Shown one piece after another: positions 15,775 to 23,602 of a stretch of DNA of 23,602 nucleotides. The first letter of the stretch is position 1. Each line of letters starts with the position of its first letter. The position numbers were made by a program, and so were the translations under genes. The notes beneath the pieces were generated by a model that was not told where the DNA came from, did no database searches, and saw only the letters and a program-made list of their open reading frames with translations. Source of the DNA: Candidatus Iainarchaeum sp. (GTDB taxonomy: Archaea; Iainarchaeota; Iainarchaeia; Iainarchaeales; DTGL01); NCBI GenBank assembly GCA_038736825.1, contig JAVYME010000019.1, forward strand, positions 1-23,602, given 5' to 3'.

Positions 15775-18700
15775 TCATTTTTGCACTAATTTTTTCCTTT
15801 TGTACACCAAAAAGTGGATTGCCAGAGTGATTCCAAAAACAGAAAACACTATTGCTGGAAGCTCTTGAGGCCAAGAGGGCAAATTGAACAAGCCGCCATC
15901 GCTTGCACCAGTGGAAATGTTCATTATATTGTTTCCAGGCGTGGTTACAACTTGTCCGTTTGCTCCCACTTGTGTTAGGGCTCCGTTTTTGAAGGCTTCA
16001 AGCAATGGCAGCAACTGGGCGTTTTCTGCATTCCAAGTGTTTTTTTCTGTGTCATACCAGAAGGAACCGTTTCTGCCTTGCGCCATGGTTAATGGTTCCG
16101 GAGGGTAATTGTTGTAGGTTACCATTGGAATTCCGTTTTTTGCATCAATTCCAAGGTTGTGAGATTTTCCGTCCTCGGTTTTTATTTTTATTCCGTCTGG
16201 TGTTACAGTCATGCTTTCAATTGGAGCATCATATATTTCGCCTGTTTGCTTGTCTATTACCCTGAAATAGTCTTTGCATGTGCCGTCTGGTTCAAGCTTT
16301 GAATAGAATATGAATCTCCTTGTAGGGGTTTCCAGTATTGTGAAGGGTCCAACGTTTTGCAGGGCTTCATTGAAGGCATTAACCTTAAAAGCGGTTGTGC
16401 TGCTCTTGTCGGATGGCAAAACTTCAAGGTTGACTGCTGGCTCTGGGCAGTCTGTGAGCGGGTTTCTTGAAGTGGCTGGCTTTAGTTTTACGCCTGCAAC
16501 ATCATCTGAAGACAACTGCCCGAGCTCGTGCCGTTTCAGCCATACAAGCAATTCATGCGTGTCAGGCTTGTAGAGTATTACTCCGTTCTTGAATTGAATG
16601 GATTTAAAAAGCCCGACAAACATGTTTTGGTCAGGACGCCACAAATAAGTGTTCCTGTCTGCATGAATCCTGGCTTTTGCCTCACTGCCCTCCATTATCA
16701 GCCTGGGAGTGCCTTCTGCAACAATCCTTTTATCTTCAGGCCAAGCCATGATTGATGGATGGGAGTCTGTTACAATTGTTTCCACTTTTCCAAATATTGG
16801 GGTTAAATTGAAGGATGTGGCGCTGTCGCTTTTTGCATCCAATCCTGACTGGAATTTTATTCCTTGCAATAAGCATTCTATAACCGAGGGGATTTTGACT
16901 GTGAGCTCGCCATCAGTGTCCATTTCAAACAATAGTTCTGCAGACTTTGGCAGTCCTATGAGTGTGAACCGTTTTCCGAATTCTTCTGCTGGAATCCTGG
17001 TGTTGGTGGAGGCACTCCTTGTTGCAAGCTCGTTTTCAGTTATTGTTTGAAGGAGTTGCCCGTTTTCGTCAACCACATAAACTTTTCCAGTGTTGAAGTC
17101 AACTATTACAAACCTGTTGCCGTCCTGCGAGGCAATCTTTTTTATGCCTTCGGTTTTGTATTCCAAGGGCGAGGTTTCGCCCTTGTACCAGAAGGAAAAC
17201 AATTGTTCGCCTGAAAGCTTGCCTGAAGAAAACCCAGGGATTTCCACTGTTGCTTGCACTATGTCTGACTGGCTTGCGCCTTCAAAAAAGTCTTTTACTT
17301 GGCGGTCCAAGGCTTCTGCTGCCTTGGAAGTGTAAGAGTTTGTGTCAGACTTGAACATTCCAATCAGTTGTCCTGAAAACTTTTCAGCCATATCCATTGC
17401 TTTTTCTGTTGAAAGCGCTTCACTGCTTTCCGTGCCCTTTTTTTCCTCTTTGGATGGAGCAAATATGTGCGTGTAATAGCCTTCATCGACGTCAACACAG
17501 TCTTGGAGTTGTGATGCAACCACCACTTGTTGGAAGACTGAACCGAAAATTCCAGCCCAAAACGCTGTCATGTAGAGAGCGCTCTCCCCGAAAGCCAGAA
17601 CTCCGCCTATAGCGCTTGGTTTCAAAACACTGTCTTTCGAGAAAGCGCCTGTTGCCCTTCCCAAGCCAAACAAGGCTTCTTGGGCTTTGTCTTGACAGGT
17701 TTGCTTTTTCGCTATTGCTGTTTTCAGGTTTATTTCCCCGCTTGTAGAAGCACCGCTTTCCTTTCCTTGAAGGTTGGTGTGATGGGCAAAGGTTATAAGG
17801 GTGTTGCCTTTCTTTTTGGCGGCTTCAGAGACTGCATCCTCTATCATGTAGGACTTAAAGCGGTCGCTAGCGTAAAAAAATGCTGAAAAGGACTGGAAAT
17901 TGTTTGAAGTGTCAAGGCTTACACCACAACCACTGCACTCGTTTTGGGTTGTGCCATAAAACGCTATGTTTTCCACTTCGTTCCGTATATTGCCGCCTGT
18001 AAAGTTTTCATACAATTTTTTTGCTGGAGCATAGTTTTCTATGAGTTGTCCTGCAATGAACTCCCAGGGCATTGCGCTTACAACCCTGCGGAACATGTCG
18101 CCCTGGTCTGAGCCTTCGTGAGAGAAAAAGTCTATGAAGGCATCATTGTAAATCGGGTCTGAACCCAAAGGCCACCTGATTTCACGCCAGGAATCTGGCA
18201 GCATGTAGGCGGAAATGCCTTCTTGTCCAAAGCCTCTTTTTGCAAACCAGTAAGTGTTCAACAAGGCAGTCCACTTGAATGGACCGGTTTTTGAGCCAAA
18301 ATAATTCTTTAAAAGCTCGTCTTGGTTCATTAGTGCTCTGTCCAAAAGGCTGGTGTAATTGCGTTTCATGAAGCCTTTTGCCTGCAAGCCGTAAACCAGT
18401 TTGTCTGCATTATCCGGGCCATACCAGGTTAGCATTGATTCAAGCCTGCGATTGTTCACAAGCCTTTGAGCGAATTCTTCCGGGCTTAACTCTTTGGCTT
18501 TAGTGATTGCTCCAGCATACATTGGTTTTTGTCCTGTCATCACTTTTGAAACATATGGCAGGGTTGCATCCTTTACCGGCATTACTTCGCCTGGATCGGT
18601 TTTCACAAAAATGTCAGTGAACTGGGAAAAATGCGTTTTTAAGTCGTCTGCGGTGACTTTTGCGATTTCTGTTGCACTTGGATCAAAAGCGTAAAGGTTG

Positions 18701-20412
18701 AGGTTTTTGCCAGCGTTTTCAAAAGAGAACTGGGTTGGCCACATTCCGCCCCAGTGCCCGTCTGCTTCAAACTTTTTCATTACATTGTAAATGTCTATTG
18801 AGTCTGAGGCAAGCCATCTTGTTGCGTCAGAGCCTTGCGGTTTTACTCCATAATAGAAAAGCCTTGCGGAACCATCTCTTGAAAACCATTCCGGAATGTC
18901 TAAGTGAATCATGTCTTCAGAGGAAGTCATTATTTTGCTTATTTTTTGCCCGAAATCAATTCTTGCAGCAACCTCTGAAGGGTGCCCCAAGCCATAAGCT
19001 TTGAGTGCCTGCATGTAGGGTTCTTTTGCATCATTGTACACTGCGCGCTGGATTTTTTGCCATTTCCTTACATCTTCAGCGAACTGGTACATTTCTTTTT
19101 GCACGCGTCCTTCGCTTATTTGGTCAAACCAGCCTCCCGTGTTCATCCATTCCTTTTCAAGCTTGTTTCTGAACTCCCTGCTTTTCAGCAATAACATGCC
19201 GTCCTGCCATCCCTGGGTTTCCATTAATTCAAAGCGAAGCCTTCCAACGTCCGGAATGCCTTCAGCGCGAGCCCACATTCTTCTTCCAAGGCGTTCATAG
19301 TAGGCTGTGCCTGGACCCATAAACCTTCTCCTGATTGCATCCATTATTTTTTCGTCAAACACTTTTTTGATTTTCGGGAAAAAGCCTCTCCTGCCAATGT
19401 TCATGAAGAGTTTTTTTGCCCTGCTTATCAGGGTTGGCGCGGCATTGCTTATCACCATTTCTGTGGAAAACCAGTTGTTGTAGTATTTGTCAAACAAAGA
19501 GTAAACATTGATTATGCAATCTGAAGTGTTGCATGTGGTTTGAGAGTAAGCATTGAAAGTGCTTGCCAGAATGGAGTTTGGAATCATTTCCTTTACAAGC
19601 CTTGACATTGTCTGCACTCTTGTTTCGTTGAGGTCGCTTGAGGCAGCCAGTTCTTTTAATTCTTGCGAGGAGTTTTCAGGCAAGCCTAATGCTTTTCTCA
19701 TGCCCTCATAGTCTTCATCCGTCCAGTCAGACTGCTCTTTTTCCGTCCAATTATAGTCTTTGCCTGTAAGGCCGCCGGCAATTGTTTCACCTGCACTCAC
19801 TGCAGCGCCTTTTATTTTTTGGCCTATTTCTCCAAAGAATTCCTTTATGGGCTTGAAATCGCTTACAAAACCGGTTCCAGAGTTCCTCAAACTCAATTGT
19901 TTTCCTTCCATTGGACAGGGAATGTTTTGGTCCTTTAAGTCAGTACACCTGCCAACCCTGAGAGTGTCTGTCAAAACAAGACCGTAAGAATATGGCCCGC
20001 TGATGTGGTCATTGAAAATGTGTTGGGCTTCATTGGCGTCAAATTTTTGGTCAGCCATTTCCACTTTTCTGGCTGTGTTTTTGTCGTCTCCCAGCGGAAT
20101 AACTACTGTTGGGTTTGCCAGTTTGTCTCTTGCAGTGTTTTCTGGACTGCCACTACTGTATTCTGAGCCCAAAAAGCCGTCCCTTAAAAGGTCCAAAAAC
20201 CTTTGCGAGTCTTCATCGCTCATGGACGGGTTTGCGCAAGTGAATTGCCCGCCTCTTTCCTCCATTGCCTGTAAAGGGGTTTTTTTTGTTTCTCCAAGGC
20301 TTTCACTGGCTTCAGCTGCGTAAACCAGGTGAGAGTTCAATAAAAGGGCTACAAGGATTGCTGCAAGGAATTGTTTTTTTTCCAGCCAGCAATTCAAGCA
20401 AAACACCGTCAT
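15775..20412 (-). CDS. giant (1545 aa) secreted, C-terminally membrane-anchored protein of unknown function
   Basis: ATG start. Sec-type signal peptide MTVFCLNCWLEKKQFLAAILVALLLNSHLVYA/AE. The C-terminal TM helix PAIVFSVFGITLAIHFLVY is followed by KRKKLVQK. An internal hydrophobic stretch sits at about aa 933-969. I recognise no catalytic or repeat motifs. The frame is long and uninterrupted, and only short shadow ORFs lie opposite. Confidence 0.85.
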   Translation of the reverse strand: MTVFCLNCWLEKKQFLAAILVALLLNSHLVYAAEASESLGETKKTPLQAMEERGGQFTCANPSMSDEDSQRFLDLLRDGFLGSEYSSGSPENTARDKLANPTVVIPLGDDKNTARKVEMADQKFDANEAQHIFNDHISGPYSYGLVLTDTLRVGRCTDLKDQNIPCPMEGKQLSLRNSGTGFVSDFKPIKEFFGEIGQKIKGAAVSAGETIAGGLTGKDYNWTEKEQSDWTDEDYEGMRKALGLPENSSQELKELAASSDLNETRVQTMSRLVKEMIPNSILASTFNAYSQTTCNTSDCIINVYSLFDKYYNNWFSTEMVISNAAPTLISRAKKLFMNIGRRGFFPKIKKVFDEKIMDAIRRRFMGPGTAYYERLGRRMWARAEGIPDVGRLRFELMETQGWQDGMLLLKSREFRNKLEKEWMNTGGWFDQISEGRVQKEMYQFAEDVRKWQKIQRAVYNDAKEPYMQALKAYGLGHPSEVAARIDFGQKISKIMTSSEDMIHLDIPEWFSRDGSARLFYYGVKPQGSDATRWLASDSIDIYNVMKKFEADGHWGGMWPTQFSFENAGKNLNLYAFDPSATEIAKVTADDLKTHFSQFTDIFVKTDPGEVMPVKDATLPYVSKVMTGQKPMYAGAITKAKELSPEEFAQRLVNNRRLESMLTWYGPDNADKLVYGLQAKGFMKRNYTSLLDRALMNQDELLKNYFGSKTGPFKWTALLNTYWFAKRGFGQEGISAYMLPDSWREIRWPLGSDPIYNDAFIDFFSHEGSDQGDMFRRVVSAMPWEFIAGQLIENYAPAKKLYENFTGGNIRNEVENIAFYGTTQNECSGCGVSLDTSNNFQSFSAFFYASDRFKSYMIEDAVSEAAKKKGNTLITFAHHTNLQGKESGASTSGEINLKTAIAKKQTCQDKAQEALFGLGRATGAFSKDSVLKPSAIGGVLAFGESALYMTAFWAGIFGSVFQQVVVASQLQDCVDVDEGYYTHIFAPSKEEKKGTESSEALSTEKAMDMAEKFSGQLIGMFKSDTNSYTSKAAEALDRQVKDFFEGASQSDIVQATVEIPGFSSGKLSGEQLFSFWYKGETSPLEYKTEGIKKIASQDGNRFVIVDFNTGKVYVVDENGQLLQTITENELATRSASTNTRIPAEEFGKRFTLIGLPKSAELLFEMDTDGELTVKIPSVIECLLQGIKFQSGLDAKSDSATSFNLTPIFGKVETIVTDSHPSIMAWPEDKRIVAEGTPRLIMEGSEAKARIHADRNTYLWRPDQNMFVGLFKSIQFKNGVILYKPDTHELLVWLKRHELGQLSSDDVAGVKLKPATSRNPLTDCPEPAVNLEVLPSDKSSTTAFKVNAFNEALQNVGPFTILETPTRRFIFYSKLEPDGTCKDYFRVIDKQTGEIYDAPIESMTVTPDGIKIKTEDGKSHNLGIDAKNGIPMVTYNNYPPEPLTMAQGRNGSFWYDTEKNTWNAENAQLLPLLEAFKNGALTQVGANGQVVTTPGNNIMNISTGASDGGLFNLPSWPQELPAIVFSVFGITLAIHFLVYKRKKLVQK

Positions 20413-20427
20413 AGTTTTTTTTCAACC

Positions 20428-20970
20428 TCACGAGTAAAGGAAATAAAGCATTCCCTGGAAAACCCAGCCGAAAAGGAAAAGCAGCAAGGCGGATGCAAGC
20501 AAAGTGCAAGCGTAAACTGAAACAAAAAGGCAAAGGTATTTGTTGAATTTCTTTTTTTCAAGCCATTCTTTTGGAAAAGAGCCAAGCAAGACAAAAAAAA
20601 GGCAGACTCCTGTCAAAAAAATGCTGCCTGCCAAAACCCTGAAAATGGAAGTCAAAGCCAAAGCCATCCAGTCAGAGAAATCAGGCTGCAATTCTTCCGG
20701 TTTTTCGCCCAGGCTTTCAGCACCAAAACCGTACAATAAGGGATAAAAATAGACAGTAAAAACAAGCAAGAGAGAGAAAAAAAAGCAGACAATTGCTGCT
20801 GCAAAAAACCATGAAATCTTGAATTTGGCGGTGAGCTTTTTATGCAATGCCCTTCCAGCCAGTGCAGTGAAAAAAAGCGGGATTGACAATACCAGGCTGC
20901 CTCGCAACAAATCCACCACCGTAAAGGCAACATCAAGCACTGAAGCCAAAACCACCGCCATAACAACCAA
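20428..20970 (-). CDS. small polytopic (about 5 TM) membrane protein, unknown function
   Basis: TTG at 20970 or ATG at 20961. About five hydrophobic helices are separated by short charged loops (HKKLTAKFK; GEKPEELQPDFSD; PKEWLEKKKFNK). The stop lies 15 nt upstream of the giant ORF start on the same strand. Confidence 0.7.
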   Translation of the reverse strand: MVVMAVVLASVLDVAFTVVDLLRGSLVLSIPLFFTALAGRALHKKLTAKFKISWFFAAAIVCFFFSLLLVFTVYFYPLLYGFGAESLGEKPEELQPDFSDWMALALTSIFRVLAGSIFLTGVCLFFVLLGSFPKEWLEKKKFNKYLCLFVSVYACTLLASALLLFLFGWVFQGMLYFLYS

Positions 20971-21045
20971 CTAACGCTAAAAATATACCTGTAACCCATA
21001 TATATAACTTAATGTAACATATTAAGTGTTTTGGATTGGTGCCAT

Positions 21046-21861
21046 ATGTACACTCCAGAAAATGTGCCGCGGAGAATGATGCGCTTTTACAGGGACGACG
21101 GAACCCGCCTTGTAAAACACCTCTCAAAACAGATTGAAAAAGCCAGCGGCATAAAAGAGGTTGAAAAACAAAAAATAATAATAAGCCTTAAGCGAAGGCT
21201 TGAAGAACTCGAAGAAAACGAAAAAAAAGACTTGGCTGTGCACTTGTTCGAGCAAGCAAGCAGTGGAAAAGACGAAACAAAAGAAGTGGTGTTCAAAGAG
21301 GTAATGAAATACCAGGGCAGACAACAGGAACTGTCAAGCAAGGAAGCCGACGAAATAGCGGACAGCATTTACTCTCAACTCAAAGAAAGAGAGGAATCAC
21401 ACAAAATCCTCTCCAGGCTTGAGGAAAAAAAGAAAAAAGAACAAGAAAAAAGCGAAAAAGAAAAAGAAAAAAAACTGCGCGAAGCAGAAAAAAAGCTGCC
21501 GCGCTCTGAAAGGCGTGAAATAAGGGAAGCTGGGCCGTTTGCAATCCCAGAACCTGAAAAAACAAGAAAAATTGACACTGCCTCGGAAGTGGACAAAATA
21601 AAAAAAGAATTATCCCAGGGGCTTGACAAAAAAGAAGAAAGCCCGGAAGAAGAAGAGGATGATTTCAGTGACATCAAAAAAGAACTGGGAATGGATGATG
21701 AAAAGGAAGAGGAAGACTCCACCTTTGAAGAACTGGAAAAACTCAGCGAAGAAAAAGAAGAAAGCCTTTCAGTTGAAAGCGATGAAGATTCAGAAGAAGA
21801 CTTCAGCATGGAGGGCTTTAAAACCGAATTCGAAGAAGAAAAGAAAAAGAAAAAAAAATAA
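21046..21861 (+). CDS. hyper-charged Glu/Lys-rich protein with acidic tail, unknown function
   Basis: ATG 21046 (the track's TTG 21031 is less likely). The first roughly 110 aa are non-repetitive (MYTPENVPRRMMRFYRDDGTRLVKHLSKQIEK...). An EK-rich segment follows, then an acidic tail (EEEEDDFSD...ESDEDSEEDFSMEGF...) ending in KKKKKK. The antisense Ser-rich ORF is a shadow. Confidence 0.65.
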   Translation: MYTPENVPRRMMRFYRDDGTRLVKHLSKQIEKASGIKEVEKQKIIISLKRRLEELEENEKKDLAVHLFEQASSGKDETKEVVFKEVMKYQGRQQELSSKEADEIADSIYSQLKEREESHKILSRLEEKKKKEQEKSEKEKEKKLREAEKKLPRSERREIREAGPFAIPEPEKTRKIDTASEVDKIKKELSQGLDKKEESPEEEEDDFSDIKKELGMDDEKEEEDSTFEELEKLSEEKEESLSVESDEDSEEDFSMEGFKTEFEEEKKKKKK

Positions 21862-21865
21862 AACT

Positions 21866-22675
21866 TTACTGGGCCAGATAACAATTCAAGTCATCATTTG
21901 GATCCAAATCGTGAAAAATCAGTTTTTCATCCAGCTTTAGGGAAGGCCAGAGCCTTAACTCTGTGAAAAGCTTTTCCTCCTTGTAAATCCACTTTCCGCT
22001 CTCCCAATCCCCATACCTGAAATGCAATGCCACAGGCTGAGCCCTTATTGAACTGCCAGTCTGGGACAAAAACTCTTCCTCGATAAAAGACTCAGAACCC
22101 TTTTCAGGATAACAAAAAAAATACCTTATTGCAAAATTGCCCGGCGAAACCTCTTGATTGTATTTCAACACAACCATTGCAAAAGACGAAACATCCTTTG
22201 ATTCAAAGGGAAGCGTGCGCATTGAAAAAAGAAAATCATAGTTTGAAAGAGCTGAAGCCATTATGGTGTTCAAATCCTTGAGAACCAGTTTTTTGGATTC
22301 AAGGCTGAAACCGCGGTGGTTGGCATAATCCTCCTTCAAAAAAGCAAGAAGGTAATCCACTTCCTTTGTGTCCGCAAGCCTTTCCCCATGCTTTCTGGGA
22401 GTGCTGGAATAAAGCAGTGTTTGAACCGCAGAAGTAGCAAAATCGGTTCCATAAAACTCCAAGGCAATCCTTTCAACCGAAGAACCATACGCATTGGTTT
22501 TCACCAGCATCAGCCTTCCACTGCCCGGCACATCAATGCCCACATCCGTTTTAACAGTGGAACCAGTAATGAAAAAAAACATGAGGGCTGCAAGGCAGGA
22601 ACAGATAACCAAAAGAAAAATTGCATCCGCAAGAGCCGCTTGAGCCCTTTCACTGTGCTTCAACCCTAAAACCAT
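21866..22675 (-). CDS. type IV pilin-like protein (class III signal peptide-like N-terminus)
   Basis: ATG start. The N-terminus MVLGLKHSERA/QAALADAIFLLVICSCLAALMFFFI is a short basic region, an [KR]-[GA] site, Q at +1, then about 25 hydrophobic residues. The remaining roughly 230 aa look soluble. It overlaps the upstream gene by 10 nt. Confidence 0.7.
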   Translation of the reverse strand: MVLGLKHSERAQAALADAIFLLVICSCLAALMFFFITGSTVKTDVGIDVPGSGRLMLVKTNAYGSSVERIALEFYGTDFATSAVQTLLYSSTPRKHGERLADTKEVDYLLAFLKEDYANHRGFSLESKKLVLKDLNTIMASALSNYDFLFSMRTLPFESKDVSSFAMVVLKYNQEVSPGNFAIRYFFCYPEKGSESFIEEEFLSQTGSSIRAQPVALHFRYGDWESGKWIYKEEKLFTELRLWPSLKLDEKLIFHDLDPNDDLNCYLAQ

Positions 22676-23223
22676 ACAACCACCACTAAAAGCATTGGCC
22701 TTACAGCAAAACCGCTCTTTATGTTTGCAGAATTGTCCTGGAATGCGACAGGGAACATTTTAACTATTGCCTGGCTGCCTGGCTTCATGTGCTCAAAATT
22801 TCCAGGACAGACAACATGTTCAAGTTCTCCGGTTTCAGGGTTTGTTGTAATATAAACCCCTTGATTGCTGTCAACAAAATCCCTTAACTCTATCATTTCA
22901 AAGGGCGCGCCCTCTTGTCTTAACTCTATCAAGCCTGCCTTGAAATTCACGCCTGGCACGCTCACCTTTTCACACAATTCCTTGAATTCCTGCAAGTCGT
23001 TTATGTACTTGTCGCCCCGCATTTGATCGCTTATTTTAAGGATTTTTATTGCCCTGTCAAAACGAGTGTTGCCCTTGTCAAAAACCGAAAAGGTTGCAGT
23101 AAAGGCAGTGAAAAAAACAACCAGTGAAAAAATTATTGGAATCAGGCTTGGAAGGTCGTCGCCTATTGGTCCAATAAAACCGCGGTTTTTGTTTTTTTTT
23201 CTCCAAAAAACCTTCATTTTCAT
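22666..23223 (-). CDS. N-terminally anchored, possibly pilin-like protein
   Basis: ATG 23223 overlaps the upstream stop by 1 nt (TGATG). The N-terminus is MKMKVFWRKKNKNRG/FIGPIGDDLPSLIPIIFSLVVFFTAFTATF. It has a single hydrophobic helix and then a soluble domain ending in the beta-like RPMLLVVVVWF. The track start at 23238 is also possible. Confidence 0.6.
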   Translation of the reverse strand: MKMKVFWRKKNKNRGFIGPIGDDLPSLIPIIFSLVVFFTAFTATFSVFDKGNTRFDRAIKILKISDQMRGDKYINDLQEFKELCEKVSVPGVNFKAGLIELRQEGAPFEMIELRDFVDSNQGVYITTNPETGELEHVVCPGNFEHMKPGSQAIVKMFPVAFQDNSANIKSGFAVRPMLLVVVVWF

Positions 23224-23602
23224 CACACCGGCGGACATGTTGCCATGTCGGCAAGTATTCCTGAACAGTCTGTTGGAGTGTCAGTGCAACGGCTTTTAAA
23301 ACCTCTTTCTTTTTGGATAAGGCAGGCAATCCTGCCGGTTTTTTCCTTGCAGTCATCGCGGTTGGCTGAAGTGCAGGGCACAAGGAAGACATTGTTGAAA
23401 CCGCTTGCTGTTTCTTTCAACACTACCACTGTATCTATTGGAATTGGGCCCAAGCCAAAGCCCAAAACCAGTGAATCTGACTCGCAGAGTTTTCCGTCCT
23501 CGTCAAGTGAAAAAATGCGAAAAGAGGCTTTTTGCTCTCTGCGCTGGCTTGCAGTTATTTTTGGAGCTCTTCCCCTGTTCACTGCAGACTTGTACTCGTC
23601 AC
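23223..23602 (-). CDS. 3' part of a Cys-containing hypothetical protein (5' end outside window)
   Basis: The reading frame stays open from the listed GTG (23582) to the window edge (...DEYKSAVNRGRAPK...), so the gene probably starts beyond 23602. The visible part has 6 Cys. It is translationally coupled to the next gene. Confidence 0.5.
   Translation of the reverse strand, partial: DEYKSAVNRGRAPKITASQRREQKASFRIFSLDEDGKLCESDSLVLGFGLGPIPIDTVVVLKETASGFNNVFLVPCTSANRDDCKEKTGRIACLIQKERGFKSRCTDTPTDCSGILADMATCPPV

What the first reader, a model, noticed from the sequence alone, without database searches (positions are those of the whole stretch)
21866..23602. Translationally coupled operon of type IV pilin-like proteins running off the window edge
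Three minus-strand ORFs overlap: a 1-nt TGATG junction at 23223 and a 10-nt overlap at 22666-22675.

The 269-aa product starts MVLGLKHSERA/QAALADAIFLLVICSCLAALMFFFI. That is a short basic n-region, an [KR]-[GA] site, Q at +1, and an uninterrupted hydrophobic helix, which is the class III (prepilin/pre-archaellin) signal pattern. It is also reminiscent of TadE-type pseudopilin N-termini (RGQAAVEFAL...).

The 190-aa product starts MKMKVFWRKKNKNRG/FIGPIGDDLPSLIPIIFSLVVFFTAFTATF. It has a similar layout, with unusual acidic residues at +7/+8. The third ORF is truncated by the window.

The sizes (190-270 aa) and the lack of similarity to archaellins suggest minor pilins or pseudopilins of an uncharacterised surface filament. 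The ATPase and platform genes presumably lie beyond 23602. The nearby giant ectoprotein hints at a combined attachment apparatus.
Basis: partly seen in the sequence, partly recalled or inferred. Interest (0 to 1): 0.62.

Follow-up and report, generated by a model that had tools for sequence, protein, structure and literature searches.

The report
Pilin-like genes of DPANN pilus locus
These three overlapping genes are the last part of a type IV pilus-like gene cluster found in nearly every sampled genome of a phylum of tiny (DPANN) archaea. They encode three pilin-like protein families that no database describes yet and that probably help build or tip a surface filament.

Summary

- The window is a whole contig of a 1.14-Mb Iainarchaeota ("Diapherotrites", DPANN) genome.
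- In about 75 related loci the order ATPase, platform, pilA (1-4 copies), pilC, p230, p190, p269, 5-TM protein, giant protein is nearly invariant.
- The window holds the C-terminal half of p230, then p190 and p269.
- p190 and p269 carry a class III (prepilin) site: K/R at -2 and G/A at -1. p269 then reads Q+1 and D+6. p190 reads F-I-G-P-I-G-D-D-L-P-S followed by a hydrophobic helix.
- AlphaFold models (pLDDT 86-88) show a long N-terminal helix plus an alpha/beta head.
- The genome has three A24 prepilin peptidases. The platform protein's C-terminal half opens contig C1. The cognate ATPase falls in an assembly gap.
- No Pfam, NCBIfam, PDB-sequence or Foldseek match exists for any of the three.

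The likeliest role is single-copy minor pilins that prime or tip the filament. This is inferred, not shown.

The scan had already met this system on other Iainarchaeota DNA. It is a new variant of a known kind, of moderate interest.

The parts
21866..22675 (-). p269: a 269-aa prepilin-like protein. Leader MVLGLKHSERA (22643-22675), predicted cleavage A11|Q12, mature N-terminus QAALADAIFLLVI... (hydrophobic helix about 22562-22642), alpha/beta head with conserved Cys188.
   Evidence: +1 Q in 74/74, D+6 in 74/74, -1 G/A in 73/74, -2 K/R in 66/74. AF2 pLDDT 88.
22666..23238 (-). p190: a prepilin-like protein of 183-190 aa. The likely start is the ATG at 23217 or 23223. Predicted cleavage is ...NRG|F, and the conserved mature N-terminus FIGPIGDDLPSLIP lies at 23137-23178. 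A hydrophobic helix and an alpha/beta head with the conserved Cys89/Cys144 pair follow.
   Evidence: AF2 pLDDT 86.5 with a 43-residue helix.
23223..23602 (-). C-terminal half (about 125 aa) of the p230 family protein, with stop TGA at 23223-23225. About 105 N-terminal codons lie beyond the contig end. The GTG 'start' at 23582 is not the real start.
   Evidence: matches p230 profile positions 108-229, E 8e-18; 47-50% identity to residues 103-232 of the same-genus proteins.
23221..23225 (-). TGATG stop/start junction between p230 and p190.
22666..22675 (-). 10-nt overlap ATGGTTTTAG between p190 and p269. A GGTGG SD-like motif sits just upstream.
   Evidence: In relatives the overlap or gap is <=0 nt in 62 of 70 loci.
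21826..21865 (-). T-rich tract directly after the p269 stop, a likely archaeal terminator at the end of the pilin gene block.
20428..20970 (-). 180-aa multi-TM protein (tm180), a conserved downstream neighbour of the pilin block.
   Evidence: present in 38 of 42 loci with at least 3.5 kb of downstream DNA.
15775..20412 (-). 1545-aa giant surface protein, a conserved downstream neighbour of the pilin block.
   Evidence: present in 30 of 38 loci with at least 7 kb of downstream DNA.

Best explanation
The three ORFs are the last three genes (p230, p190, p269) of the pilin block of a type IV filament (T4F) locus. The locus is specific to, and nearly universal in, Iainarchaeota, with diverged copies in Micrarchaeota.

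Proposed mechanism:
1. Each protein is made as a prepilin with a short basic leader.
2. It is inserted in the membrane.
3. One of the genome's three A24 prepilin peptidases cuts it after [KR]-[GA].
4. The dedicated ~760-aa FlaI/TadA-type ATPase and ~785-aa platform protein extract it from the membrane into a helical filament, through its N-terminal hydrophobic helix.

Inferred role. pilC, p230, p190 and p269 are single-copy, always in the same order, and each has its own conserved charged N-terminal signature: E+7, K+5, D+7/D+8 and D+6. The small pilA/pilB genes vary from 1 to 4 copies. The four are therefore most likely minor pilins forming a priming or tip complex, as GspH-K and FimU-PilVWX do in bacteria, with pilA/pilB as the major subunit. 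The adjacent 5-TM protein and giant surface protein are probably functionally coupled to the filament, for example in adhesion.

Shown: gene order, motifs, fold layout, and presence of peptidases and platform.
Inferred: cleavage, incorporation into a filament, and the minor-pilin role.
For: Synteny:
- The order ATPase, platform, pilA(1-4), pilC, p230, p190, p269, tm180, giant holds in about 75 loci.
- Among loci with enough flanking DNA, the platform is present in 36/41, tm180 in 38/42 and the giant protein in 30/38.
- In divergent orders of the same class, the same pilC-p230-p190-p269 order and the motif variants [KR]G|FVTVIGFD, RG|YSALEDVP and leaderless MIGPIGED occur.

Motifs:
- p190: -2 K/R in 72/76, -1 G/A in 76/76, then FIGPIGDD[LI]PS. 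An exhaustive HMM search found 249 representatives, nearly all reading [KR]G[FY][ILV]G.[IL]GDD.P.
- p269: Q+1 and D+6 in 74/74. The window's RA|Q matches the EpdA site RAQI, and the KG|Q of its homologues matches EpdB-E (PMC4371748).
- p230 has a full [KR]G leader in Micrarchaeota.

Structure:
- AF2 for p269 gives pLDDT 88 with H7-38 and H62-88 followed by a beta-sheet head. AF2 for p190 gives pLDDT 86.5 with a 43-residue helix followed by an alpha/beta head.
- Conserved Cys pairs fit an extracytoplasmic head.

Machinery in the same genome:
- Three A24 peptidases carry both Asp motifs.
- The platform C-terminal half lies at C1:3-1196 (497 bits) and is followed by pilA genes.

Distribution: the family is in 180/201 genomes of the phylum.
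Against: - No sequence or structure match to any solved or catalogued pilin.
- In p190 the hydrophobic helix starts only about 11 residues after the predicted cut. The Gly/Pro-rich, doubly acidic segment between them is modelled as coil, which is atypical for pilins.
- In Iainarchaeales the p230 leader is only 'MLG', and the -1 residue is D, M or E in some members, so p230 may not be cleaved at all.
- The cognate ATPase, pilC and the p230 N-terminus are missing from this assembly.
- There is no expression or proteomic evidence.
- Part of the motif sample (L039-L112) was ascertained by the pattern FIGPIGDD itself. This bias is mitigated.
Confidence: 0.78

Rival explanations
1. p190, and possibly p230 or p269, is not a filament subunit. 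It is a bitopic membrane component of the assembly machine, functionally like PilN/PilO/GspM or the ArlF/ArlG stator. Its highly conserved N-terminal peptide FIGPIGDDLPS would sit at the cytoplasmic face and dock onto the platform protein or the ATPase.
For: - The 11-residue segment is far more conserved than the rest of the protein (25-30% overall identity).
- It is predicted as coil before the helix.
- It contains Gly, Pro and two Asp, which is unusual for the buried start of a pilin helix.
- The protein is strictly single-copy and universal.
- The ATPase is very strongly conserved (bit scores 1236-1409 of about 760 aa across both phyla), so a conserved docking partner exists.
Against: - The motif is always preceded by [KR]-[GA], the class III cleavage site. 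Leaders of very different length, or no leader at all, precede it: MKKG|F, a leader carrying four extra repeats of the RG|FVG-type motif (P0053), and leaderless MIGPIGDD. This fits a processed N-terminus.
- Foldseek finds no PilN, PilO or GspM-like match.
- The gene sits inside the pilin block.
Confidence: 0.15
2. The proteins only use the class III signal route for membrane anchoring or export, as the Sulfolobus bindosome sugar-binding proteins do. They would then be surface proteins with a function unrelated to filament assembly.
For: Archaeal A24 peptidases process non-pilin substrates (PMC4371748). The heads have no recognisable pilin fold match.
Against: - There is no enzyme or binding domain.
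- The position is fixed between pilC and the end of the pilin block, next to a dedicated ATPase and platform, across two phyla.
- Sizes and the helix-plus-small-head layout are typical of pilins.
Confidence: 0.05
3. The ORFs or their N-terminal motifs are chance features of an AT-rich contig end.
For: A loose class III rule gives 69 hits in this genome against about 19 in shuffled controls, so the motif alone is weakly specific.
Against: Orthologues with the same motifs and order occur in about 180 genomes, and the AF2 models are confident.
Confidence: 0.01

Closest known systems
Epd pili of Methanococcus maripaludis (archaeal T4F 'system 1'; EppA-processed pilins EpdA-E)
   Same: - Class III signal with K/R at -2, G/A at -1 and Gln at +1. 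EpdA has RAQI and EpdB-E have KGQx. The window's p269 has RA|QA and its homologues have [KR]G|QA.
- Several minor pilins are encoded together with a FlaI/TadA-type ATPase and a platform.
- A larger A24 peptidase with an archaeal C-terminal domain is present in the genome.
   Different: - No hit to PF04021/DUF361 or to any Epd family.
- The acidic residue is D+6, not E+5.
- p190 has F at +1.
- The platform is one ~785-aa gene, not two genes. Two-gene platforms occur in this genome's other loci on C13, C2 and C23.
- The ATPase is ~760 aa, and earlier first-reader notes on related genomes record a Cys-rich N-terminal region.
- A giant 1500-aa protein and a 5-TM protein are linked to the locus.
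Core minor (pseudo)pilins of bacterial T2SS and T4aP (GspH-I-J-K; FimU-PilV-W-X, with the PilY1 adhesin)
   Same: - A set of four single-copy pilin-like genes in a fixed order, distinct from the major pilin.
- One member is enlarged.
- The set is adjacent to a very large non-pilin surface protein.
- The junctions are tightly coupled or overlapping.
   Different: - No sequence or fold homology was detected.
- The context is archaeal, with a single membrane.
- The giant protein has its own Sec-type signal and a C-terminal anchor.
- The analogy is functional only and is untested.
TadE/TadF pseudopilins (PF07811) of bacterial Tad pili
   Same: The N-terminus of p269 (RGQAAxTDAxF...) resembles G-x-x-A-V-E-F-A-L, and Tad ATPases are the bacterial relatives of archaeal FlaI-type ATPases (TadA model, 131 bits).
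   Different: No PF07811 match in any of the 65 family members. The head domain is unrelated.
'Dark matter' pilins in DPANN type IV pilus loci (Makarova, Wolf and Koonin 2019, PMC6393860; T4F census PMC13705601)
   Same: The general prediction is the same: unannotated small proteins with signal peptides next to the FlaI-type ATPase (written 'FliI' in that paper) and TadC-like genes in DPANN genomes are pilins.
   Different: - Those papers give no family definitions, motifs or structures for these proteins.
- The 2026 census reports that DPANN T4F genes are mostly scattered. This locus is ordered and conserved across a whole phylum.

Membership tests
Type IV pilin-like proteins (class III signal peptide substrates) | Charged residue at -2 and G/A/S at -1, with the site placed before the hydrophobic H-domain (criteria in PMC4371748) | tested here: met
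   In the window, p269 has ER-A|Q and p190 has NR-G|F. Across the families, -2 K/R is 66/74 and 72/76, and -1 G/A is 73/74 and 76/76. This also holds in the exhaustive HMM hits and in divergent orders.
Type IV pilin-like proteins (class III signal peptide substrates) | Uninterrupted hydrophobic helix of about 20 residues right after the cleavage site | tested here: inconclusive
   Met for p269 (QAALADAIFLLVICSCLAALMFFFI, one Asp at +6). In p190 the 22-residue hydrophobic stretch starts at +12, after FIGPIGDDLPS, which AF2 models as coil.
Type IV pilin-like proteins (class III signal peptide substrates) | Long N-terminal alpha-helix with a small beta-sheet-containing head ('lollipop') | tested here: met
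   AF2 for p190 shows a 43-residue helix (25-67) followed by an alpha/beta head, pLDDT 86.5. AF2 for p269 shows H7-38 and H62-88 followed by a 5-strand head, pLDDT 88. Only the layout is met: Foldseek finds no solved pilin.
Type IV pilin-like proteins (class III signal peptide substrates) | Encoded with, or served by, a T4F ATPase, a platform protein and an A24 prepilin peptidase | tested here: met
   The ATPase and platform are adjacent in relatives. The platform C-terminal half is at C1:3-1196 in the same genome. Three A24 peptidases have both Asp motifs. The cognate ATPase is not in the assembly.
Type IV pilin-like proteins (class III signal peptide substrates) | Leader actually removed, and protein incorporated in a filament | not testable with these tools
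   No culture or proteome is available.
Epd / DUF361 pilins (Pfam PF04021), EppA substrates | Gln at +1 | tested here: met
   For p269, Q+1 is 74/74. It is not met for p190 (F or Y at +1) or p230.
Epd / DUF361 pilins (Pfam PF04021), EppA substrates | Match to the family model, and Glu at +5 | tested here: not met
   No PF04021 hit at E<=1 in the window proteins or in the 65 p269 members. The acidic residue is D+6.
TadE-like pseudopilins (Pfam PF07811) | Match to the family model | tested here: not met
   No hit.
Archaellins (Pfam PF01917) | Match to the family model | tested here: not met
   No hit in Pfam or NCBIfam.
PilN/PilO/GspM-type alignment proteins (considered for p190) | Conserved short cytoplasmic N-terminal peptide, one TM helix, ferredoxin-like periplasmic domain | tested here: inconclusive
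   The conserved N-terminal peptide, the TM helix and an alpha/beta domain are present. No fold or sequence match to solved members was found, and the peptide is preceded by a cleavage-type [KR]G.

The most novel reading that the evidence does not exclude
pilC, p230, p190 and p269 form a fixed four-member tip or priming complex of a DPANN-specific filament. The complex carries or cooperates with the neighbouring 1500-aa giant protein, in the way bacterial minor pilins present PilY1. This would make the locus the host-attachment organelle of Iainarchaeota and Micrarchaeota. The conserved, doubly acidic FIGPIGDD N-terminus of p190 would be a new kind of assembly-initiation signal read by the oversized platform protein or ATPase.
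Probability: 0.25. Interest if true: 0.7.

Novelty: new variant of a known kind. Interest (0 to 1): 0.45.

Why it matters
DPANN archaea are thought to live attached to other cells, but the attachment machinery of most lineages is unknown. A recent census concluded that their type IV filament genes are mostly scattered and of uncertain function.

This locus is ordered. The p190 family was found in 56 of 58 high-quality genomes of the phylum, so the locus appears near-universal, and it is shared in diverged form with Micrarchaeota. It contains at least three protein families without any database description, and it is linked to a giant surface protein.

Clear cleavage motifs and confident models now define these families. 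That gives concrete targets for metaproteomics, antibody or cryo-ET labelling in enrichment cultures, and in-vitro peptidase assays. It would also improve annotation of several hundred 'hypothetical proteins'.

Tried and rejected
- Pfam, NCBIfam, PDB sequence-profile and Foldseek/PDB searches of p190 and p269 gave nothing meaningful.
- hhalign of the p190 and p269 families shows no mutual homology, so they are not recent paralogues.
- No other contig of the genome starts with sequence overlapping the end of C19.
- HMM search of the whole assembly found no pilC, no cognate ATPase and no p230 N-terminus. Contig C47 carries only a paralogous ATPase (about 40% identity) and platform.
- The second round of the search for homologous proteins with an alignment added only three p269 relatives.
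- A home-made class III rule applied genome-wide was too unspecific to be useful: 69 hits against about 19 in shuffles.
- My first HMM-building script timed out.
- The idea that C23 (ATPase and platform near a contig start) continues C19 was rejected. C23's proteins are only 26-28% identical to the cognate ATPase, and its pilins are of the GVSPLIAT type.
Full report
**Observation**

- A 5'-open ORF ends with TGA at 23225-23223.
- An ATG at 23223-23221 shares one base with that stop (TGATG). The database gene call for the second protein starts two codons later, at 23217, giving 183 aa (P0001).
- The second ORF ends with TAG at 22668-22666. The third starts at 22675, so the overlap is 10 nt.
- GGTG-type Shine-Dalgarno-like motifs lie in front of the starts.
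- A long T-run follows the last stop.

**Organism and contig**

The window is the whole contig C19 of a 1.14-Mb, 50-contig genome that is 95% complete. CTP-dependent riboflavin kinase, PAC2 and a split transketolase in the window mark it as archaeal. Homologues are labelled Candidatus Diapherotrites or Iainarchaeum. The organism is therefore a DPANN archaeon of the phylum Iainarchaeota.

**Conservation and context**

Both complete proteins are conserved and adjacent in 38-40 of 41 relatives spanning 29 families of the order. I took regions from complete or large contigs and 74 loci from the genome collection. I classified their ORFs with iterated HMMs.

The gene order is almost invariant:
1. 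ATPase (~760 aa)
2. platform (~785 aa)
3. pilA/pilB (1-4 copies, 140-200 aa)
4. pilC (~190 aa)
5. p230
6. p190
7. p269
8. a variable gene
9. a ~180-aa multi-TM protein (tm180)
10. a ~1500-aa giant protein

The window holds the C-terminal half of p230 (profile positions 108-229, E 8e-18), then p190, p269, tm180 and the giant protein.

Among loci with enough flanking DNA:
- The platform is present in 36/41.
- tm180 is present in 38/42.
- The giant protein is present in 30/38.
- p190 and p269 overlap or abut in 62/70.

The ATPase matches T2SSE, and its best models are FlaI and TadA, far below their cut-offs. The platform has a marginal T2SSF match. This is a strongly diverged T4F machine.

In the window's own genus the ATPase-platform-pilA arm is inverted and lies directly upstream of pilC (L039, L041, L043, L044). 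In the window's genome the C-terminal half of the platform (497 bits) opens contig C1 and is followed by pilA genes. pilC, the cognate ATPase and the N-terminal halves of p230 and the platform are not assembled. In one sub-clade the ATPase is not adjacent, as earlier reports of this scan also noted.

**Class III signals**

A review of archaeal pilins gives these criteria: G/A/S at -1, a charged residue at -2 that is critical in archaea, and a site that precedes the H-domain (PMC4371748).

p269 family:
- -2 K/R in 66/74.
- -1 G in 62 and A in 11.
- +1 Q in 74/74.
- D at +6 in 74/74.
- The window's RA|QA equals the EpdA-type site RAQI. The KG|Q and RG|Q of its homologues equal the sites of EpdB-E, which are substrates of the Gln-requiring peptidase EppA.

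p190 family:
- -2 K/R in 72/76 and -1 G/A in 76/76.
- Then F-I-G-P-I-G-D-D-[LI]-P-S-[LI].

The 74 loci were found through the pattern FIGPIGDD, so this invariance is partly circular. I checked it in two unbiased ways.
- Divergent orders of the same class keep the same gene order. Their variants read KG|FVTVIGFDIPS, KG|FIGPIGFDLPS, RG|YSALEDVP, a paralogue RG|QMSTLGEDLP, and two forms that start directly at Met-IGPIGED or MPSLID.
- An exhaustive HMMER search of 1.84 billion representatives found only 249 members. Nearly all read [KR]G[FY][ILV]G.[IL]GDD.P, often with a leader as short as MKKG, and once with no leader.

Leaders of variable length, including none, in front of a fixed N-terminus are what a processed precursor looks like.

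The other families of the block also fit:
- pilA/pilB read [KR]G|QAFSVF[KRE]LLIAA.
- pilC reads [KR]G|QESAPFELL, with E+7 in 64/64.
- p230 has [KR]G leaders in Micrarchaeota. In Iainarchaeales it has only 'MLG' or 'MLD' before F-I-L-S-K, with a Lys at +5.

The genome encodes three A24 peptidases with both catalytic Asp motifs. Two of them carry the archaeal C-terminal domain.

**Structure**

With family alignments, AlphaFold2 gave confident models.
- p269: pLDDT 88, pTM 0.77. Helix 7-38, a low-confidence genus-specific insert at 39-61, helix 62-88, then an alpha/beta head with five strands.
- p190: pLDDT 86.5. Residues 1-24 (leader plus FIGPIGDDLPS) are coil, followed by a 43-residue helix and an alpha/beta head.

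This is the pilin layout, but neither model matches any solved structure (best Foldseek E 0.06 and 0.5). Neither family matches PDB sequences, Pfam or NCBIfam. The two families are not detectably related to each other. Conserved cysteines fit an extracytoplasmic head: C89/C144 in p190, C188 in p269 and three in p230.

**Interpretation**

That these are prepilin-like components of a T4F machine rests on motifs, layout, synteny and the presence of the machinery. I put this at about 0.8.

The narrower claim is inference. pilC, p230, p190 and p269 are single-copy and keep a fixed order. Their charged N-terminal signatures are conserved and differ from one another: E+7, K+5, D+7/D+8 and D+6. The small pilA/pilB genes vary in copy number, as major pilins often do. 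This mirrors the four core minor pilins of bacterial T2SS and T4aP, which prime assembly and, in T4aP, present the large PilY1 protein. The conserved neighbouring giant protein invites the same idea. This narrower claim is roughly 0.5 within the main reading.

The chief rival concerns p190. Its 11-residue Gly/Pro/Asp-rich N-terminal segment is far more conserved than the rest of the protein and is not helical in the model. It could therefore be a docking peptide of a membrane-anchored assembly factor, in the manner of PilN, rather than the buried start of a pilin helix. The [KR]G site and the variable or absent leaders argue against this but do not exclude it.

**Comparison with what is known**

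Makarova, Wolf and Koonin (PMC6393860) already stated that unannotated signal-bearing proteins next to the FlaI-type ATPase (written 'FliI' in the paper) and TadC in DPANN genomes are probably pilins. A 2026 census (PMC13705601) reports DPANN T4F genes as mostly scattered, with many Epd-like ('system 1') pilins.

The present locus shares the Q+1 site with Epd pilins. It fails the family models, and it has one long platform gene instead of two. It also coexists in this small genome with other loci that have two platform genes: an Epd/Flp-like one with Q+1/E+5 pilins on C13 and C2, and one with GVSPLIAT-type pilins on C23. It is best described as a new, lineage-specific variant of a known kind of machine.

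This scan had already met the same system in other Iainarchaeota genomes, and next to this finding.

**Limits**

No multimer prediction was possible. The p230 N-terminus, pilC and the ATPase of this genome are unassembled.

Noticed in passing
G000 contigs C2, C9, C13, C23, C47 (outside the window): This 1.14-Mb genome carries five T2SSE-type ATPases, three loci with platform (T2SSF) genes in Pfam hits plus a fourth platform-like gene on C47 and the platform half on C1, and distinct pilin sets. These are Q+1/E+5 'QGALEY'-type pilins on C13 and C2, 'KG|VSPLIAT'-type on C23, and a paralogous oversized ATPase and platform on C47. That is a heavy investment in type IV filaments for so small a genome.
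   Followed up: partly
P0053 (p190 homologue from a JGI metagenome): Its leader holds four tandem copies of DNKSRGFVGFLG, that is, repeats of the cleavage-site motif itself, in front of the genuine KG|FIGPIGDD.
   Followed up: no
L041 (G003:C32, same genus), p190 gene: The p190 orthologue is split into two reading frames there, and NCBI calls it 'partial'. This is either a sequencing error or a pseudogene in a close relative.
   Followed up: no
L079:559-2859: In a Forterrea-like sub-clade, a 766-aa protein with a class III-type N-terminus GEKA|QSTTEYLALVGLL (Flp/Epd-like E+5, Y+6) sits upstream of the platform gene, where the ATPase sits in other lineages.
   Followed up: no
window 21031-21861 (+): A hyper-charged Glu/Lys protein converges on the pilin block. 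A counterpart occupies this slot in same-genus and same-family loci (57-61% and 31% identity). In other lineages the slot holds other genes, for example a zinc-ribbon protein in L033.
   Followed up: partly
window 22493-22561 (p269 residues 39-61): A genus-specific, low-confidence insert of about 23 residues lies between the membrane helix and the second helix of p269. It is absent from several close homologues.
   Followed up: no
L115 (G152) and P0230: Some p190 homologues appear to start directly with Met at the position of the mature +1 residue (MIGPIGED/DD...), with no leader to remove.
   Followed up: partly
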